This document shows positions 1 through 41,299 of a stretch of DNA of 42,971 nt, one piece after another (position 1 is the first letter of the stretch; every line of letters starts with the position of its first letter). Position numbers and translations under genes: made by a program. The DNA is from a virus (lineage: Duplodnaviria > Heunggongvirae > Uroviricota > Caudoviricetes). Below the pieces are notes generated by a model. The model did not search any database, was not told the origin of the DNA, and saw only the letters and a list, made by a program, of their open reading frames with translations. The DNA lies in the IMG/VR virus record IMGVR_UViG_2579778686_000011. One strand, written 5' to 3'.

Positions 1-755
1 TTCAGTAAATACAGGGTTACTGATAGTGACACCAATTTCAAAACAACCTTCAGACGTATTAACGTTTGGTAATAACGTTTCCATTATCGCGTCCTCAACA
101 ATGAATTTTGTGATGCGGTGCCTGGTGCCTCCAGGTGACGTTAACCAGTTAACAATTAACGCCGGATACAGAGAATCCACCCATAACACTGTTTTTGGTT
201 TTAACTGTTCCGCGTGCGCTCAGCCGCATTCACCGCATCACAAAATTCACTTTAAAAAGGGCGGCAGAGCAGTCACGGAGTAAAACTGATACCGCCAAAC
301 GTCACCAGAAAATTGATAACAGAGGGCGTTGCAGCGGGGTTGTCACTTAAGCGTATGGTCAACCTGACAACTCGGTGTCCTCAACGGGGAAGGAATAACC
401 CCGCCATACTTACCGCCGCGCCATTTCGCGGGTTGCCACAACCGGAAGCGCACGGTCGAATTAAATTTAACGACACCGTACAGTGAGACGAACTTCGCCG
501 TGCGCTTTCGTGTTGTATGCCTGCTTTTAACCACGTCAGGCGAGGTGGTATCCTTCTTATCCCGAATAACCAAGAAGGAAATCTATATGACTAAAGAAGA
601 ATTTGTCTCTTATATTTTTGATAAAACGGTTGAAATGTATGCCGCTACTTACGGGTCCTGTAATCCTCTGAATAAACCAGAGGGGAAAGATGATTTCGAC
701 AAAATTTACCGCTTCTTGGAGGACCGCTATATCAAAAGGTTAGAGGACGCAGGGA

Positions 756-4234: not shown

Positions 4235-5305
4235 TTGATATGTGATATAACAATAATCAACCGTTCAAAAAGGAGCATTTATATGAGCAGGATGATAATT
4301 GATACAAATATTCTTTACTCACTAGTTGGTCTGTCGACAAACCAAAAAATAATTAACTCCCCTATAGATCAATTCAAATTATCCATTACGACACCATCAC
4401 TCATAGAAGTGATCTCTAAATATTGCAATGACTTAGGGGCTGTAAAAAAATGCATTAGCCCAATCATAAACGGAAATATTGAACTAATTAGCATTGGTCA
4501 TACTCCAATCTCAAATGAATTTCTTTATAGGTTGCATTTTTCAGACAAAATAGACGAAGTAAAAGATATTATTGATAATGTTAGAGCACTAAAAATATCT
4601 AGAGAGGCTGAGTTTTATAGGTTCATACTCATACTGGTTGTCTCTGGTTTGTTTGAGGTTATTAGAGAAGATGGATACAAGTTTGATAACGATGTACAAA
4701 ATCAAAGTCAACTTAGTCTTGTGCAGACTCTACTTGAATCTAATATGGAATTAATTTTAGACTTCTTTAAAGATGAGTTGCGGAATGGATATATTAATGG
4801 AAATGAGCAGCAATCAGCTTTGAAAGCTTTTGAAACCATGCTTATCGGACTCCTACATGCTTTTCATGTCAACTATCATATGATTAAAACTGACACAGTT
4901 AACATTTCCGGAAGCCAAGACAGACTCAAAAATCTGTATGATAGTATAAAAAATGATAATTTTGATAAAAAGTTTAAAAAATATATGGAGAATCCAATAT
5001 CCCTTGCCTGCAAAAAAAAACACGAATCAGTAGTTGATAACTACCTGAAAGAAATGGAGGAGGGGATTTCTGGCGCTCGTGGGCTTACTAAGAATTCGTT
5101 GAGCTTTCTAATGAGCAAGGTTGAGGATGCATATAAAAATGGTCGTAAATTACGAAAAAATGACATATTTGACTTTCTAATAGTTATTTCTCTAAATATG
5201 CCAGACACTTTGATTTTAACACTTGATAAAGGTTTTTTAAAAGACCTTAAAGATCTTCACCCTAACAGCTATAAAAAGTGTCTGGATTTCGGTTTTGTAA
5301 ATTAA
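4235..5305 (+). CDS. Split PIN-like domain protein in an AT-rich island (340 aa if started at ATG 4283)
   Basis: N-terminus MIIDTNILYSL matches the hhhDTNhh start of PIN/VapC nucleases; C-terminus NDIFDFLIVISL...DTLILTLDKGF resembles the distal PIN acidic strand; about 250 aa of Lys/Asn/Ile-rich sequence lies between. Confidence 0.55.
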   Translation: MICDITIINRSKRSIYMSRMIIDTNILYSLVGLSTNQKIINSPIDQFKLSITTPSLIEVISKYCNDLGAVKKCISPIINGNIELISIGHTPISNEFLYRLHFSDKIDEVKDIIDNVRALKISREAEFYRFILILVVSGLFEVIREDGYKFDNDVQNQSQLSLVQTLLESNMELILDFFKDELRNGYINGNEQQSALKAFETMLIGLLHAFHVNYHMIKTDTVNISGSQDRLKNLYDSIKNDNFDKKFKKYMENPISLACKKKHESVVDNYLKEMEEGISGARGLTKNSLSFLMSKVEDAYKNGRKLRKNDIFDFLIVISLNMPDTLILTLDKGFLKDLKDLHPNSYKKCLDFGFVN

Positions 5306-5602
5306 AAATATATTGATGTAAAATAAAACGCACCCACATTTAACTTAGCTAGACTATATCCTTCAATTATTCTATCTGCTTTTTGTTAAATGTGGGGTTG
5401 CAGATGTTACGAGTCAATTAAATTTGCAAGTCAGGTAGAATTGATAAGAATTGCAATACGAATCCGTGAACATTAATGCTAACGCTAAGTATACGAAAGA
5501 TATTGTAAATATACTTCTTTTTTTGTTTTTAAGTTCTTTTATTTGACAGTAGTTCCATCATTCAATTGCGTATTATCTTCCAATGCCAGTGACACTCCCT
5601 CA

Positions 5603-5695
5603 TTATGAGAGGATTGTGGTAATCAAAAGAAAAATTAATATCACGCCAAGAATATTCGAAACCAACCCTATGGTGTTAAGTCCTGGTGATGTCAT
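5603..5695 (-). CDS. Candidate small hydrophobic peptide (30 aa, MTSPGLNTIGLVSNILGVILIFLLITTILS)
   Basis: Hand-translated from the minus strand; single predicted transmembrane helix; weak RBS; in otherwise ORF-free AT-rich DNA. Confidence 0.2.
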   Translation of the reverse strand: MTSPGLNTIGLVSNILGVILIFLLITTILS

Positions 5696-6075
5696 TTAGT
5701 TTGCTCTAGGTTTATTATTCAGAAAGCAAAGAATATTCGTTAAATTATTATGTTAGCTTTAATTATTAAAAAACATGTTAATTATCATCAAATGAGCACT
5801 TATCATCATTTTAGTCAAAGAGGTAGTGAGTATTCATTCTGGATCATAACTGCCTTCCTGTTTACGCTAGTGTTTTTTAAAGTCGATGTCCGCTCATCGC
5901 TCAAAGCGGACTAGAAGGTTAGCTTGTGTCGGACTTTGCGTATTAAATGACTAGTGGTTGAGCCCCATTTCCACAGAAAAAATCAGAGAAACTATACCCA
6001 ATAGTTGTATTGAATCACTGACGAGACAGCCTCATATTCATCAGGACTGGTGTACGTCCAATACAGGAGGTTGTG

Positions 6076-6165
6076 GTGCTGGTTCTCAAATGTGCGCTGG
6101 CTATTACGGCTGTAATGGCGATTTATTGTCTTGCTATTGTTCTTATGGATCGCCTTTCTGACTGA
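6076..6165 (+). CDS. Candidate small hydrophobic peptide (~30 aa, VLVLKCALAITAVMAIYCLAIVLMDRLSD; GTG start)
   Basis: AGGAGG at 6065-6070 five nt before GTG 6076; overlaps in another frame the 5958..6161 Cys/Gly-rich ORF. Confidence 0.25.
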   Translation: MLVLKCALAITAVMAIYCLAIVLMDRLSD

Positions 6166-6376
6166 TTTCACATTGGCGAGGTAACGGTAGTTAAGTAGAA
6201 TGGCTGCGGGTGCTTGAGGCTATCTGCCTCGGGCATGAACACCAACGGCAGATAGAGAAAAGCCCCAGTTAACATTACGCGTCCTGCAAGACGCTTAACA
6301 TTAATCTGAGGCCAATTTCATGCTAGACACATGTAGGTTAGCCTCTTACGTGCCGAAAGGCAAGGAGAAGCAGGCT

Positions 6377-6532
6377 ATGAAGCAGCAAAAGGCGATGTTA
6401 ATCGCCCTGATCGTCATCTGTTTAACCGTCATAGTGACGGCACTGGTAACGAGGAAAGACCTCTGCGAGGTACGAATCCGAACCGGGCAGACGGAGGTCG
6501 CTGTCTTCACAGCTTACGAACCTGAGGAGTAA
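6377..6532 (+). CDS. hok: Hok/Gef-family type I toxin
   Basis: MKQQKAMLIALIVICLTVIVTALVTRKDLCEVRIRTGQTEVAVFTAYEPEE is collinear with Hok, including the TRK-LCE-R core; AAGGAGA RBS; in-frame upstream ATG at 6320 gives a mok-like leader; hok-like 5' UTR and 3' fold-back elements present. Confidence 0.85.
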   Translation: MKQQKAMLIALIVICLTVIVTALVTRKDLCEVRIRTGQTEVAVFTAYEPEE

Positions 6533-6601
6533 GAGACCCGGCGAGGGAGAAATCCCTCGCCACCTCTGATGTGGCAGGCATCCTCAACGCACCCGCACTT
6601 A

Positions 6602-6627
6602 ACCCGCTTCGGCGGGTTTTTGTTTTT
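6602..6627 (+). terminator. Rho-independent terminator ending the hok transcript
   Basis: CCCGC-TTCG-GCGGG hairpin followed by TTTTTGTTTTT. Confidence 0.7.
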
Positions 6628-6748
6628 ATTTTCAACGCGTTTGAAGTTCTGGACGGTGCCGGAATAGAATCAAAAATACTTAAGTAGCGCGCAGGGATAA
6701 GAGGGATGGTCCCTTAAAGGGGAGAGCTAATTATCCGGAAGGATTCTG

Positions 6749-7000
6749 ATGATGAACATCGAAGAACTGCGTAAAATTTTTTGTGAAGATGGCCTCTATG
6801 CGGTGTGCGTTGAAAATGGAAATCTTGTTAGTCATTACCGCATTATGTGTTTGCGAAAGAATGGGGCTGCGTTAATTAATTTTGTGGATGGTCGAGTGAC
6901 AGACGGATTTATCTTGCGCGAAGGTGAGTTTGTCACTTCATTACAGGCACTGAAAGAGATCGGAATAAAAGCAGGCTTTTCAGCTTTTGCAGAAGAATAA
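6749..7000 (+). CDS. Hypothetical NinR-region protein (83 aa)
   Basis: Open frame with plausible start; no recognisable motif. Confidence 0.4.
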   Translation: MMNIEELRKIFCEDGLYAVCVENGNLVSHYRIMCLRKNGAALINFVDGRVTDGFILREGEFVTSLQALKEIGIKAGFSAFAEE

Positions 7001-9744: not shown

Positions 9745-9820
9745 GGCCCTTTAGCTCAGTGGTGAGAGCGAGCGACTCATAATCGCCAGGTCGCTGGTTC
9801 AAATCCAGCAAGGGCCACCA
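9745..9820 (+). tRNA. tRNA with CAT anticodon (Met or lysidine-type Ile2), 76 nt with encoded CCA
   Basis: Acceptor stem GGCCCTT/AAGGGCC, GTTCAAATC T-loop, anticodon loop CTCATAA. Confidence 0.85.
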
Positions 9821-9920: not shown

Positions 9921-9997
9921 GCGTTGTTAGCTCAGCCGGACAGAGCAATTGCCTTCTAAGCAATCGGTCACTGGTTCGAATCCAGTACAGCGCGCCA
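9921..9997 (+). tRNA. tRNA-Arg (anticodon TCT), 77 nt with encoded CCA
   Basis: Acceptor stem GCGTTGT/ACAGCGC, GGTTCGAATCC T-arm, anticodon stem ATTGC/GCAAT with loop CTTCTAA. Confidence 0.85.
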
Positions 9998-10461: not shown

Positions 10462-10851
10462 ATACATATCTGGATTATCACCGGTTACGGTAAAAAGTGA
10501 TTGCTTACTGTTTTTGTGAATGGCATTGCAGCAGCCGGATAATGTCAGTGCTGGCTGACGGTGTGCTGGTGGCGGGTGTGGTGGTTGCTGCTTTCCCGTT
10601 GCTGAAAAAGAAAACGCCAGACTGTTAGCCGGGTATCAGTTAGCGGGAGAAATTTTTAAATACTTCACAATTCAGGCGGTTGACTGTTGTCTGGTTTGCG
10701 GGGAGTTTGTTAAAAGAAACTGGCATGGTGAATCCCCCTGTGCGGAGGGGCAATCAGCGAGTAGGTATATGGGATAATCGCGGATTCAGGTGCTGGTACT
10801 GAATTCACCGGGAGGCACCCGGCACCATGCAATGGCACATAGCGCCACTCT

Positions 10852-10880
10852 CCAGCCCCTCTCCGGAGGGGCTGTTTATA
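10852..10880 (+). terminator. Rho-independent terminator
   Basis: Perfect 8 bp stem AGCCCCTC-TCCG-GAGGGGCT followed by GTTTATATTGATTTT. Confidence 0.6.
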
Positions 10881-10908
10881 TTGATTTTGTCAGATGTGAG
10901 TAAACTCC

Positions 10909-40715: not shown

Positions 40716-41299
40716 TGGCATTCAGAATGAGTGAACAAGCACGGACCATAAAAATTTATAATCTGCTGGCCGGAACTAATGAATTTATTGGTGAAGGTGA
40801 CGCATATATTCCGCCTCATACAGGTCTGCCAGCAAACAGTACCGATATTGCACCACCAGATATTCCTGCTGGCTTTGTGGCTGTTTTCAACAGTGATGAG
40901 GCATCGTGGCATCTCGTTGAAGACCATCGGGGTAAAACGGTTTATGACGTAGCGTCAGGGGACGAGTTATTTATTTCTGAACTCGGTCCGTTACCGGAAA
41001 ATGTTACCTGGTTATCGCCGGAAGGGGAGTTTCAGAAGTGGAACGGCACAGCCTGGGTGAAGGATACGGAAGCAGAAAAACTGTTCCGGATCCGGGAGGC
41101 GGAAGAAACAAAAAACAACCTGATGCAGGTAGCCAGTGAGCATATTGCGCCGCTTCAGGATGCTGCAGATCTGGAAATTGCAACGGAGGAAGAAACCTCA
41201 TTGCTGGAAGCCTGGAAAAAGTATCGGGTATTGCTGAACCGTGTTGATACATCAACTGCACCTGATATTGAGTGGCCTGTAAATCCTGTCAGGGAGTAA
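40715..41299 (+). CDS. tfa: Tail fibre assembly protein Tfa
   Basis: 194 aa immediately after stf; N-terminus [39 protein letters not shown] as in lambdoid Tfa. Confidence 0.88.

What the first reader, a model, noticed from the sequence alone, without database searches (positions are those of the whole stretch)
6170..6630. Complete hok-family type I toxin locus inside the prophage
The product is collinear with Hok/Gef toxins. The upstream leader resembles hok mRNA 5' elements (GCTTGAGGCTATCTGCCTC, TAGCCTCTTAC, GCAAGGAGAAG) and the 3' end has a fold-back and terminator (ACCCGCTTCGGCGGGTTTTTG). Unlike plasmid R1 hok/sok as I recall it, the upstream mok-like ATG at 6320 is in frame with hok (57 nt apart), which would change how translational coupling works here. 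An antisense sok-like RNA is expected on the minus strand around 6280-6360.
Basis: partly seen in the sequence, partly recalled or inferred. Interest (0 to 1): 0.45.

Follow-up and report, generated by a model that had tools for sequence, protein, structure and literature searches.

The report
Intact prophage hokD/sok toxin–antitoxin locus
This is an ordinary, already described small-toxin/antisense-RNA ("hok/sok") cassette carried by a lambda-like prophage of E. coli: complete and probably working, but found in most E. coli genomes and studied before under the names hokD and hokW-sokW.

Summary
Window 6173-6628 holds a complete hok/sok-type type I toxin-antitoxin locus.

- **Parts present:** hok promoter, structured leader, mok ORF, 51-aa Hok ORF identical to K-12 HokD, 5'-3' fold-back pairing, terminator, and a 71-nt antisense Sok gene (6328->6258, minus strand).
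- **How common:** the 471 bp are 100% identical in many E. coli chromosomes and in phage mEp460_ev081. 3928 of 5426 complete E. coli genomes carry a full-length copy.
- **Closest characterised relative:** the locus is 94% identical to hokW-sokW of Stx2 phage 933W/Sp5. That locus has had mokW, hokW and sokW annotated since 1999.
- **Antisense promoter:** the sokW -10 (TAACCT), identical here, was tested by mutation in 2021.
- **In-frame mok:** the ATG is indeed 57 nt upstream and in frame, against 58 nt and out of frame in R1. This is not new: K-12 mokC/hokC and 933W mokW/hokW are annotated the same way. Close relatives use 56, 57 or 58 nt, so the frame is not a conserved property.
- **K-12 comparison:** K-12 hokD is a derivative in which relBE replaces everything upstream of the hok Shine-Dalgarno sequence.

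Verdict: already known, low interest. One side observation may be worth a look: sequence diversity among close copies is concentrated in the 16 nt that form the Sok 5' tail and its target.

The parts
6173..6201 (+). hok promoter: -35 TTGGCG (6173-6178), 17-nt spacer, -10 TAGAAT (6196-6201)
   Evidence: Consensus scan, 9 of 12 matches. The -10 is identical in 933W hokW. The TSS at about 6208 is inferred from the start of the Rfam model and from alignment with the R1 5' end.
6208..6622 (+). Full-length hok mRNA (about 415 nt), from the inferred TSS to the terminator T run
   Evidence: MFE -173 kcal/mol, z = -8.5 against shuffles. The Rfam RF01794 hit covers 6208-6382. The ends are inferred, not mapped.
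6208..6221 (+). tac element (5' end GGGUGCUUGAGGCU)
   Evidence: Pairs with 6582-6594 in the MFE structure. Conserved across relatives, with compensatory changes in the partner. GAGGCU (6216-6221) is complementary to ucb AGCCUC (6340-6345), as in R1.
6258..6328 (-). Sok antisense RNA (71 nt): 15-nt single-stranded 5' tail, long hairpin, then CUUUU
   Evidence: The annotated 933W sokW maps exactly here. The K-12 SokC and SokB 5' ends map to 6328 and 6327. Fold -28.7 kcal/mol, z = -5.1. Expression was not tested for this copy; sokW was detected by northern blot in Sp5 (PMC8621323).
6335..6363 (-). sok promoter: -35 TTGCCT (6363->6358), 17-nt spacer, -10 TAACCT (6340->6335)
   Evidence: Read from the sequence. 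Identical to 933W/Sp5. Primers YO-421/422 of PMC8621323 replace + strand TAGGTTA with CCGGCTC, which destroys this -10 and abolished antitoxin activity. T1, A2 and T6 of the -10 are kept in all relatives. The strict consensus scan missed it because the -10 matches only 3 of 6 positions.
6308..6311 (+). mok Shine-Dalgarno sequence GAGG, 8 nt before the mok ATG
   Evidence: Invariant among relatives. Complementary to ucb (truncated folds).
6320..6532 (+). mok ORF (70 codons), in frame with hok and sharing its stop codon
   Evidence: Same arrangement as annotated mokC and mokW.
6313..6328 (+). Target of the Sok 5' tail (SD-AUG spacer plus mok codons 1-3); hot-spot of diversity among close loci
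   Evidence: Mean column entropy 0.775, against 0.2 or less in the other leader elements. At least 12 alleles in 65 unique loci.
6340..6349 (+). ucb element AGCCUCUUAC
   Evidence: Invariant in window, hokC, hokB and R1. 6343-6349 pairs with 6529-6535 in the full-length MFE structure.
6364..6367 (+). hok Shine-Dalgarno sequence GGAG, within the conserved CAAGGAGAAG
   Evidence: Invariant block in alignment A2. Homology with K-12 hokD begins here.
6377..6532 (+). hokD toxin ORF (51 aa, MKQQKAMLIALIVICLTVIVTALVTRKDLCEVRIRTGQTEVAVFTAYEPEE)
   Evidence: Pfam HOK_GEF 1.2e-23. Annotated hokD in RefSeq. The CDS differs from K-12 hokD only by a synonymous change, GGG versus GGC. 47 of 51 residues identical to HokW.
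6529..6535 (+). dcb element GUAAGAG, overlapping the hok stop codon
   Evidence: Pairs with ucb 6343-6349 in the full-length MFE structure.
6582..6594 (+). fbi element CCUCAACGCACCC (fold-back inhibition)
   Evidence: Pairs with 6208-6219 in the MFE structure. A partner for the 5' end lies 45-50 nt after the stop codon in nearly all relatives, with compensatory changes.
6601..6628 (+). Intrinsic terminator: hairpin AACCCGCUUCGGCGGGUU plus T run
   Evidence: Shared with K-12 hokD but not with 933W hokW, whose sequence diverges from about 6604.

Best explanation

**Shown here by sequence and comparison**
- A sigma-70-type promoter (6173-6201) would start a roughly 415-nt hok mRNA at about 6208.
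- The 5' end of that RNA (tac, 6208-6221) pairs with fbi (6582-6594).
- ucb (6340-6349) pairs with dcb (6529-6535).
- The leader carries a mok ORF (ATG 6320) whose SD and first codons are fully complementary to a 71-nt antisense RNA, Sok.
- Sok is transcribed from TTGCCT-17-TAACCT on the minus strand, starting at 6328.
- The toxin ORF (6377-6532) equals K-12 HokD.

**Inferred from the R1 hok/sok and Sp5 hokW-sokW work**
- The full-length mRNA is stable and translationally silent.
- Slow 3' trimming removes fbi, the 5' end switches to ucb, and the mok initiation region opens.
- While Sok is made, it binds there and the duplex is cut, partly by RNase III.
- When Sok synthesis stops, the short-lived Sok disappears. 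This could follow prophage induction, prophage loss or a transcription shut-off.
- Ribosomes then translate mok and so unmask the hok SD. HokD, and here also a 70-aa Mok-Hok fusion, inserts into the inner membrane and depolarises or lyses the cell.

The frame of mok relative to hok is incidental to this mechanism. The physiological role is most likely the one shown for hokW-sokW, namely help with lysis and phage release on induction. Prophage retention and defence against other phages remain possible and are not distinguished here.
For: **Identity**
- Rfam RF01794 at 115 bits and Pfam HOK_GEF at 1.2e-23.
- 100% identity to regions annotated hokD in many genomes and to phage mEp460_ev081.
- 94% identity to 933W mokW/hokW/sokW.

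**Promoters and terminator:** for hok; for sok.

**Structure**
- The MFE structure pairs 6208-6219 with 6582-6594 and 6343-6349 with 6529-6535.
- z = -8.5 for the mRNA and -5.1 for Sok.
- The fbi partner keeps its position, with compensatory changes in Photorhabdus, Kluyvera and hokB.
- Forcing tac/ucb costs about 13 kcal/mol in the full-length RNA and 5-7 in the truncated RNA, the same as for R1.

**Function of relatives**
- HokW is toxic, and the sokW promoter mutation releases toxicity.
- sokW is seen on northern blots and disappears after mitomycin C.
- Phage release is halved in the deletion mutant (PMC8621323).
- The HokD CDS is toxic when expressed (bioRxiv 10.1101/2025.08.07.668861).
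- mok translation is required only up to the hok start (PMC9841398).

**Frame variability:**
Against: - No expression data exist for this copy.
- The sok -10 (TAACCT) matches the consensus at only 3 of 6 positions, and the strict scan found no minus-strand promoter.
- MFE prediction does not favour the 'active' tac/ucb conformer in the truncated RNA. This is equally true of the experimentally proven R1 RNA, so the test is uninformative.
- Chromosomal hokA, hokB and hokC loci with all elements were reported not to mediate post-segregational killing or to be activated by rifampicin (Pedersen & Gerdes 1999, as summarised in the preprint). An intact architecture therefore does not guarantee activity.
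- Compared with hokW, this locus has a different 3' terminator, a different Sok 5' tail and a different position in the prophage. The phenotype shown for Sp5 may not transfer.
Confidence: 0.85

Rival explanations
1. The locus is structurally intact but physiologically silent. The hok mRNA stays locked, or Sok is always in excess, so the cassette is a selfish passenger with no phenotype, as was proposed for chromosomal hokA, hokB and hokC.
For: The report that chromosomal loci do not mediate post-segregational killing and are not activated by rifampicin (summarised; also PMC12214031). The weak -10 of sok and the very stable closed mRNA fold.
Against: The 94% identical hokW-sokW is active in its native prophage. 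The regulatory elements are nearly invariant across 65 unique close loci. Compensatory changes maintain tac/fbi, which argues for continuing selection.
Confidence: 0.15
2. One reading: because mok is in frame, coupling works differently. The main toxic product would be the 70-aa Mok-Hok fusion made by ribosomes starting at 6320, with no independent initiation at the hok AUG.
For: The ORF 6320-6532 is open and in frame. In-frame is the majority state in this subfamily, 82 of 107 loci. The fusion contains the whole Hok transmembrane domain.
Against: The hok SD and AUG block (CAAGGAGAAG...AUG) is invariant. Near-identical loci have mok at 56 nt (19 codons, stop overlapping the hok AUG) or 58 nt (out of frame), yet keep all other elements. 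K-12 hokD lacks mok altogether, and its 51-aa product is the toxin. In R1, mok translation past the hok start is dispensable.
Confidence: 0.1
3. Alternative role: the cassette acts mainly as a prophage-retention (post-segregational killing) module or as abortive-infection defence against other phages, rather than as a lysis helper.
For: 933W annotators called it 'prophage maintenance'. R1 hok/sok reduces T4 plating (cited). hok genes are about four-fold enriched in prophages.
Against: No direct test for any hokD or hokW locus. The preprint found no enrichment of hok near defence systems. The only experimental phenotype in a prophage is enhanced release after induction.
Confidence: 0.3
4. The locus is a decayed remnant or a chance resemblance.
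For: None found. K-12 hokD shows only that such loci can decay.
Against: Every element is present and matches functional relatives.
Confidence: 0.01

Closest known systems
hokW-sokW (with mokW) of Stx2 phage 933W / Sakai prophage Sp5
   Same: 94% nucleotide identity over window 6189-6604. Same 57-nt in-frame mok, a 71-nt Sok at the same coordinates, an identical sok promoter and identical sequence from 6327 to 6471. Hok proteins share 47 of 51 residues. Experimentally a type I toxin-antitoxin system (PMC8621323).
   Different: Seven substitutions in the Sok 5' tail and its target, and one in the Sok loop. Four C-terminal Hok residues differ (TAYEPEE versus VDYESEK). The sequence downstream of about 6604, including the terminator, is unrelated. 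hokW lies near the right end of the Stx phage genome, not in the nin region.
hokD (relF) of E. coli K-12 cryptic prophage Qin
   Same: Identical HokD protein, with one synonymous difference in the CDS. Identical 3' UTR apart from one substitution (A/G at window 6544), with fbi and the terminator unchanged, the same downstream gene rem, and the same prophage neighbourhood.
   Different: In K-12 the similarity stops about 13 nt upstream of the hok ATG. relB-relE replace the hok promoter, tac, sok, mok and ucb. The window carries the complete form. The relE-hokD junction is found in 1165 of 5426 genomes, and a full-length locus in 3928 of 5426.
hokC (gef)/mokC/sokC of E. coli K-12
   Same: Same subfamily. 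mokC is in frame with hokC, 57 nt apart. The SokC 5' end maps to window 6328.
   Different: About 80% protein identity. The Sok hairpin is shorter (59-nt SokC). In K-12, IS186 lies downstream and no fbi partner sits at the normal position.
hok/sok (parB) of plasmid R1
   Same: All named elements are present in the same order: tac, Sok target, mok SD/ATG, ucb, hok SD, dcb and fbi. GCUUGAGGCU, AGCCUCUUAC and CAAGGAGAAG are conserved. In-silico energetics of the tac/fbi to tac/ucb switch are comparable.
   Different: In R1, mok is 58 nt upstream and out of frame. Takada et al. give 44% identity between the near-identical HokW and R1 Hok. R1 is plasmid-borne, with proven post-segregational killing.

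Membership tests
[quoted passage not shown] | Small (about 50 aa) Hok/Gef membrane toxin ORF | tested here: met
   Pfam PF01848 at 82.9 bits (cut-off 22). PHROG 251 at 2.8e-33.
[quoted passage not shown] | Cis-encoded antisense RNA gene (Sok) with its own promoter, overlapping the mok initiation region | tested here: met
   Promoter hexamers, TSS and hairpin plus U tail lie at the positions of annotated SokC, SokB and SokW. The promoter is identical to the mutationally tested sokW promoter. Transcription of this copy was not tested.
[quoted passage not shown] | Leader ORF mok with an SD, overlapping the hok start | tested here: met
   GAGG at 6308-6311, ATG at 6320, ORF open through hok.
[quoted passage not shown] | Long-range 5'-3' pairing (tac/fbi) that closes the full-length mRNA | tested here: met
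   MFE pairs 6208-6219 with 6582-6594. Position conserved, with compensatory changes in relatives.
[quoted passage not shown] | ucb/dcb boxes and the alternative tac/ucb pairing | tested here: inconclusive
   The boxes are present and conserved, and ucb/dcb pair in the MFE structure. The tac/ucb conformer is 5-7 kcal/mol above the MFE in truncated RNA, as for R1, so thermodynamic prediction cannot decide.
[quoted passage not shown] | Slow 3' processing of the mRNA; unstable Sok versus stable hok mRNA | not testable with these tools
   Needs a rifampicin chase with northern blots.
[quoted passage not shown] | Toxicity of Hok and its neutralisation by Sok | not testable with these tools
   Literature only. 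The HokD CDS is toxic. HokW is toxic and is neutralised by sokW.
hokD (as named by RefSeq/PGAP) | Protein identical to K-12 HokD (WP_000813254.1) | tested here: met
   The CDS alignment shows a single synonymous change. Annotated hokD in 100%-identical genomes. NCBIfam Hok HMMs score below their cut-offs (48.5 against 73), so the name rests on sequence identity.
R1-type mok arrangement (out-of-frame overlap) | mok ATG 58 nt upstream of hok, in a different frame | tested here: not met
   57 nt and in frame here. 58 nt in R1 and K-12 mokB. This separates subtypes, not the family.

The most novel reading that the evidence does not exclude
The 16 nt that form the Sok 5' tail and its target (6313-6328: mok SD-AUG spacer plus mok codons 1-3) may be a diversifying specificity module. 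Under this reading, prophage-borne hokD/hokW loci that are otherwise nearly identical fall into at least 12 'recognition alleles'. Several copies in one genome (median 2, up to 9 per E. coli genome) would then not cross-protect each other, and each prophage would keep its own addiction or lysis switch. One-nucleotide indels in the same stretch would also explain, as a by-product, why the mok frame flips between 56, 57 and 58 nt.
Probability: 0.35. Interest if true: 0.35.

Novelty: already known. Interest (0 to 1): 0.1.

Why it matters
It matters little as a discovery. The cassette was annotated in phage 933W in 1999 with its in-frame mokW and its sokW, and a 94% identical copy was characterised experimentally in 2021. 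RefSeq names the gene hokD, and most E. coli genomes carry a full-length copy.

There are two practical points:
- RefSeq/PGAP annotates only the hokD CDS, so the Sok RNA, mok and the mRNA elements are invisible in standard annotation.
- The K-12 reference hokD is a truncated derivative. This window is a better model of a native hokD locus.

If the side observation holds, the hypervariable Sok recognition stretch would offer a simple system for studying how antisense RNA specificity diversifies among co-resident prophages.

Tried and rejected
1. **Strict promoter scan.** It found no minus-strand promoter. I do not read this as absence, because the validated sokW -10 (TAACCT) has only 3 of 6 consensus matches, below the tool's threshold.
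2. **MFE folding of 3'-truncated RNA to demonstrate the tac/ucb switch.** The MFE structure does not adopt it, but neither does R1, so the test cannot discriminate.
3. **Rfam strand.** The 'sok' hit is on the + strand. I checked this and concluded that the model represents the hok leader, not the orientation of Sok.
4. **In-frame mok as a novelty.** Rejected after finding the same arrangement in the mokC and mokW annotations, and mixed frames among relatives.
5. **Co-resident copies.** I tested whether copies in one genome always carry different Sok tails. Only 7 genomes had more than one locus in my sample, and a random pair shares a tail with probability 0.11. The sample is too small to conclude.
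6. **Small upstream ORF.** PHROG and NCBIfam searches for the ORF at 6076-6165 found nothing.
7. **Not used.** The large protein-database searches, structure prediction and metagenome scans were not needed for a 51-aa protein of known family.
8. **Not accessible.** Pedersen & Gerdes 1999 and Poulsen 1991 are not in the library. Statements about them come from later papers that cite them or from my own memory, and are marked as such.

Full report

Yes.
- The ORF at 6377-6532 encodes a 51-aa protein that matches Pfam HOK_GEF (82.9 bits, E 1.2e-23) and PHROG 251 'MokW-like host killing'.
- An ATG at 6320 lies 57 nt upstream and in frame, giving a 70-codon ORF.
- Rfam RF01794 ('sok') matches 6208-6382 at 115 bits, against a gathering score of 59. 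The hit is on the + strand because that model describes the hok leader. It does not give the orientation of Sok.
- A sigma-70-like promoter (TTGGCG-17-TAGAAT, 6173-6201) and a terminator-like hairpin (6601-6618 plus T run) bracket the unit.
- The 415-nt transcript they define folds at -173 kcal/mol, z = -8.5 against dinucleotide shuffles.

This is far beyond chance.

**2. What is it?**

The 471 bp are 100% identical to stretches annotated only as 'hokD' in many E. coli chromosomes.
- 4722 of 5426 complete genomes have a match, and 3928 have a copy covering at least 80% of the query.
- Phage mEp460_ev081 carries a 100% identical copy in the same position.
- The surrounding genes are those of a Qin/mEp460-like lambdoid prophage. 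The order is dicB, DicF RNA (259-310), dicA/dicC, ydaT, O, DUF977, hokD, rem, ydfU, rusA, Q, tRNAs, holin.

Comparison with the K-12 reference shows identity from about 13 nt upstream of the hok ATG through rem. Upstream of that point K-12 has relB-relE instead. K-12 hokD therefore lacks the hok promoter, tac, sok, mok and ucb, and the window holds the complete form. The K-12 relE-hokD junction occurs in 1165 of 5426 genomes, so the complete form is the commoner one.

**3. The antisense gene**

On the minus strand the sequence reads TTGCCT (6363->6358), a 17-nt spacer, then TAACCT (6340->6335). A start 7 nt further on falls at 6328.
- Through alignment A2, the annotated 5' ends of K-12 SokC and SokB map to 6328 and 6327, and their 3' ends to about 6252.
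- Phage 933W (AF125520) annotates mokW, hokW and a 71-nt sokW. With no indels across this stretch, sokW corresponds to window 6258-6328.
- That RNA folds into a 15-nt single-stranded 5' tail, a long hairpin and CUUUU (-28.7 kcal/mol, z = -5.1).
- The window and 933W are identical from 6327 to 6471, which covers the whole promoter.
- In Takada et al. 2021 (PMC8621323), the 'pro-less' mutant was made with primers that change + strand TAGGTTA to CCGGCTC. This destroys exactly that TAACCT, and HokW toxicity was released. sokW was also seen on northern blots.
- The -10 keeps T1, A2 and T6 in every relative examined, from Escherichia to Photorhabdus.

The strict consensus scan missed this promoter because the -10 matches only 3 of 6 positions.

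**4. mRNA fold elements**

The MFE structure of the full-length RNA contains two long-range pairings:
- 6208-6219 with 6582-6594 (tac/fbi);
- 6343-6349 with 6529-6535 (ucb/dcb, the latter overlapping the stop codon).

An alignment-free search in 30 diverse loci finds the best 3'-UTR partner of the 5' end at 45-50 nt after the stop codon in nearly all of them. The partners show compensatory changes:

| Locus | 5' end | 3' partner |
|---|---|---|
| Window | GGGUGCUUGAGG | CCUCAACGCACCC |
| Photorhabdus | GGGCGCUUGAGA | UCUCAAGCGCCC |
| Kluyvera | GGGUGCUUGAGA | UCUCAACGCACCC |
| K-12 hokB | GGGUGCCUGAGA | UCUCAUGGCACCC |

K-12 hokC, which has IS186 downstream, lacks such a partner.

Forcing the alternative tac/ucb helix costs about 13 kcal/mol in the full-length RNA and 5-7 in 3'-truncated RNA. 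The values for the experimentally proven R1 RNA are 13 and 5-9.5. The window therefore behaves like R1 in silico, but thermodynamic prediction cannot by itself show the switch.

**5. The in-frame mok**

The in-frame state, however, is already annotated for K-12 mokC/hokC (same stop, 57 nt) and 933W mokW/hokW.

Among 107 unique HokC/HokD-type loci from IMG/VR and GTDB genomes, the mok-position ATG has these spacings:

| Spacing to hok ATG | Unique loci | Consequence |
|---|---|---|
| 57 nt | 82 | In frame |
| 58 nt | 8 | Out of frame, as in R1 |
| 56 nt | 10 | 19-codon ORF whose TGA overlaps the hok ATG (ATGA) |

The remaining 7 loci have no ATG at that position.

Le Rhun et al. 2022 showed that in R1, mok must be translated only up to the hok initiation region (PMC9841398). 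Together with the natural variation, this says the frame is incidental. The one consequence of the in-frame state is that ribosomes starting at mok would make a 70-aa N-terminally extended Hok. Whether that product accumulates is untested.

**6. Mechanism**

*Shown here:* the architecture, the complementarity, the conservation and the covariation.

*Inferred from R1 and hokW-sokW:*
- The full-length mRNA is stable and closed.
- 3' trimming activates it.
- Sok binds the mok initiation region and triggers cleavage, partly dependent on RNase III and Hfq in hokW.
- Loss of Sok allows Mok and Hok translation, followed by membrane damage.

For hokW-sokW in Sp5, mitomycin C treatment made sokW disappear. 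HokW then appeared in the inner membrane in a RecA-dependent way, and phage release was halved in the deletion mutant. I take this as the most likely role here too. I am only moderately confident, because this locus differs from hokW in its Sok 5' tail, its terminator and its position in the prophage.

A caveat applies. Chromosomal hokA, hokB and hokC loci were reported not to give post-segregational killing, and the literature treats K-12 hokD as inactivated by rearrangement.

**7. Comparison and novelty**

The locus belongs to the hok/sok family, in the HokC/HokD/HokW subfamily. Its toxin is that of K-12 hokD, and it is about 94% identical to hokW-sokW. Nothing about its architecture is new. 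Standard annotation shows only the CDS, which probably explains why it looked noteworthy in raw sequence.

**8. Side observations**

- **Diversity hot-spot.** Among 65 unique close loci, nucleotide diversity is concentrated in 6313-6328, which is the Sok 5' tail and its target. Mean entropy there is 0.775, against 0.02-0.2 in mok SD, ucb, the Sok hairpin, hok SD and fbi. At least 12 alleles occur. The CDS values are biased low because loci were selected by protein identity, but the leader values are not. Co-resident copies mostly differ, though the sample is too small to test this. Selection for Sok specificity would fit, but it remains a hypothesis.
- **RNA-editing motif.** The HokD Tyr47 codon lies in a UACG motif (6515-6518). 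K-12 hokD mRNA is reported to be A-to-I edited at a low level at the corresponding site.
- **Small upstream ORF.** A 29-aa hydrophobic ORF with a strong SD (6076-6165) sits immediately upstream of hok. It has homologues or analogues in the same slot in other prophages and is unannotated.

Noticed in passing
window 6313-6328 (both strands): The Sok 5' tail and its target (mok SD-AUG spacer plus codons 1-3) form a sharp hot-spot of diversity among otherwise near-identical hokD/hokW loci. Mean entropy is 0.775 against 0.2 or less elsewhere in the leader, with at least 12 alleles in 65 unique loci. This may be a specificity determinant that limits cross-talk between co-resident copies.
   Followed up: partly
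window 6076-6165 (+): An unannotated 29-aa hydrophobic ORF (MLVLKCALAITAVMAIYCLAIVLMDRLSD), with a GTG start 5 nt after AGGAGG, lies directly upstream of the hok promoter. Other hokD/hokW prophages carry, in the same slot, a homologue sharing the YCL..V.LMDRL motif or a different 27-aa family (MTWPEAF...ICRWG). No PHROG or NCBIfam match.
   Followed up: partly
window 6515-6518 (+): The HokD Tyr47 codon lies in a UACG motif (GCUUACGAA), the TadA A-to-I editing context. Editing would recode Tyr to Cys. K-12 hokD mRNA is reported as edited at about 6% (PMC12214031).
   Followed up: partly
window about 5305-5900: An AT-rich stretch (GC 0.29-0.36, against about 0.5 in the hok locus) has no annotated gene in the closest genomes. 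It lies between a hypothetical gene and the small ORF/hok unit. In mEp460_ev081 a different gene on the opposite strand occupies the corresponding region, so this is a variable prophage cargo slot.
   Followed up: no
window 259-310 (-): DicF antisense sRNA (Rfam RF00039, 76.7 bits), next to dicB. This confirms the Qin-like immunity and division-inhibition region.
   Followed up: no
window 9745-9817 and 9921-9994 (+); 10694-10883 (+); 41058-41256 (+): Two prophage tRNA genes (Ile and Arg in the closest genome) lie just downstream of the Q antiterminator. There are also Rfam hits to sRNA STnc100 (132 bits) and IS009 (224 bits).
   Followed up: no
window 6571-6687 (+): A 38-aa ORF spanning fbi, the terminator and the downstream spacer is annotated 'hypothetical protein' in phage mEp460_ev081. 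It runs through the hok 3' UTR and terminator and is most likely a spurious call.
   Followed up: no
window 6641-6670 (+): A promoter-like site, TTGAAG-18-TAGAAT, lies just after the hok terminator and about 80 nt upstream of rem (6749-7000). It could drive rem independently of hok.
   Followed up: no
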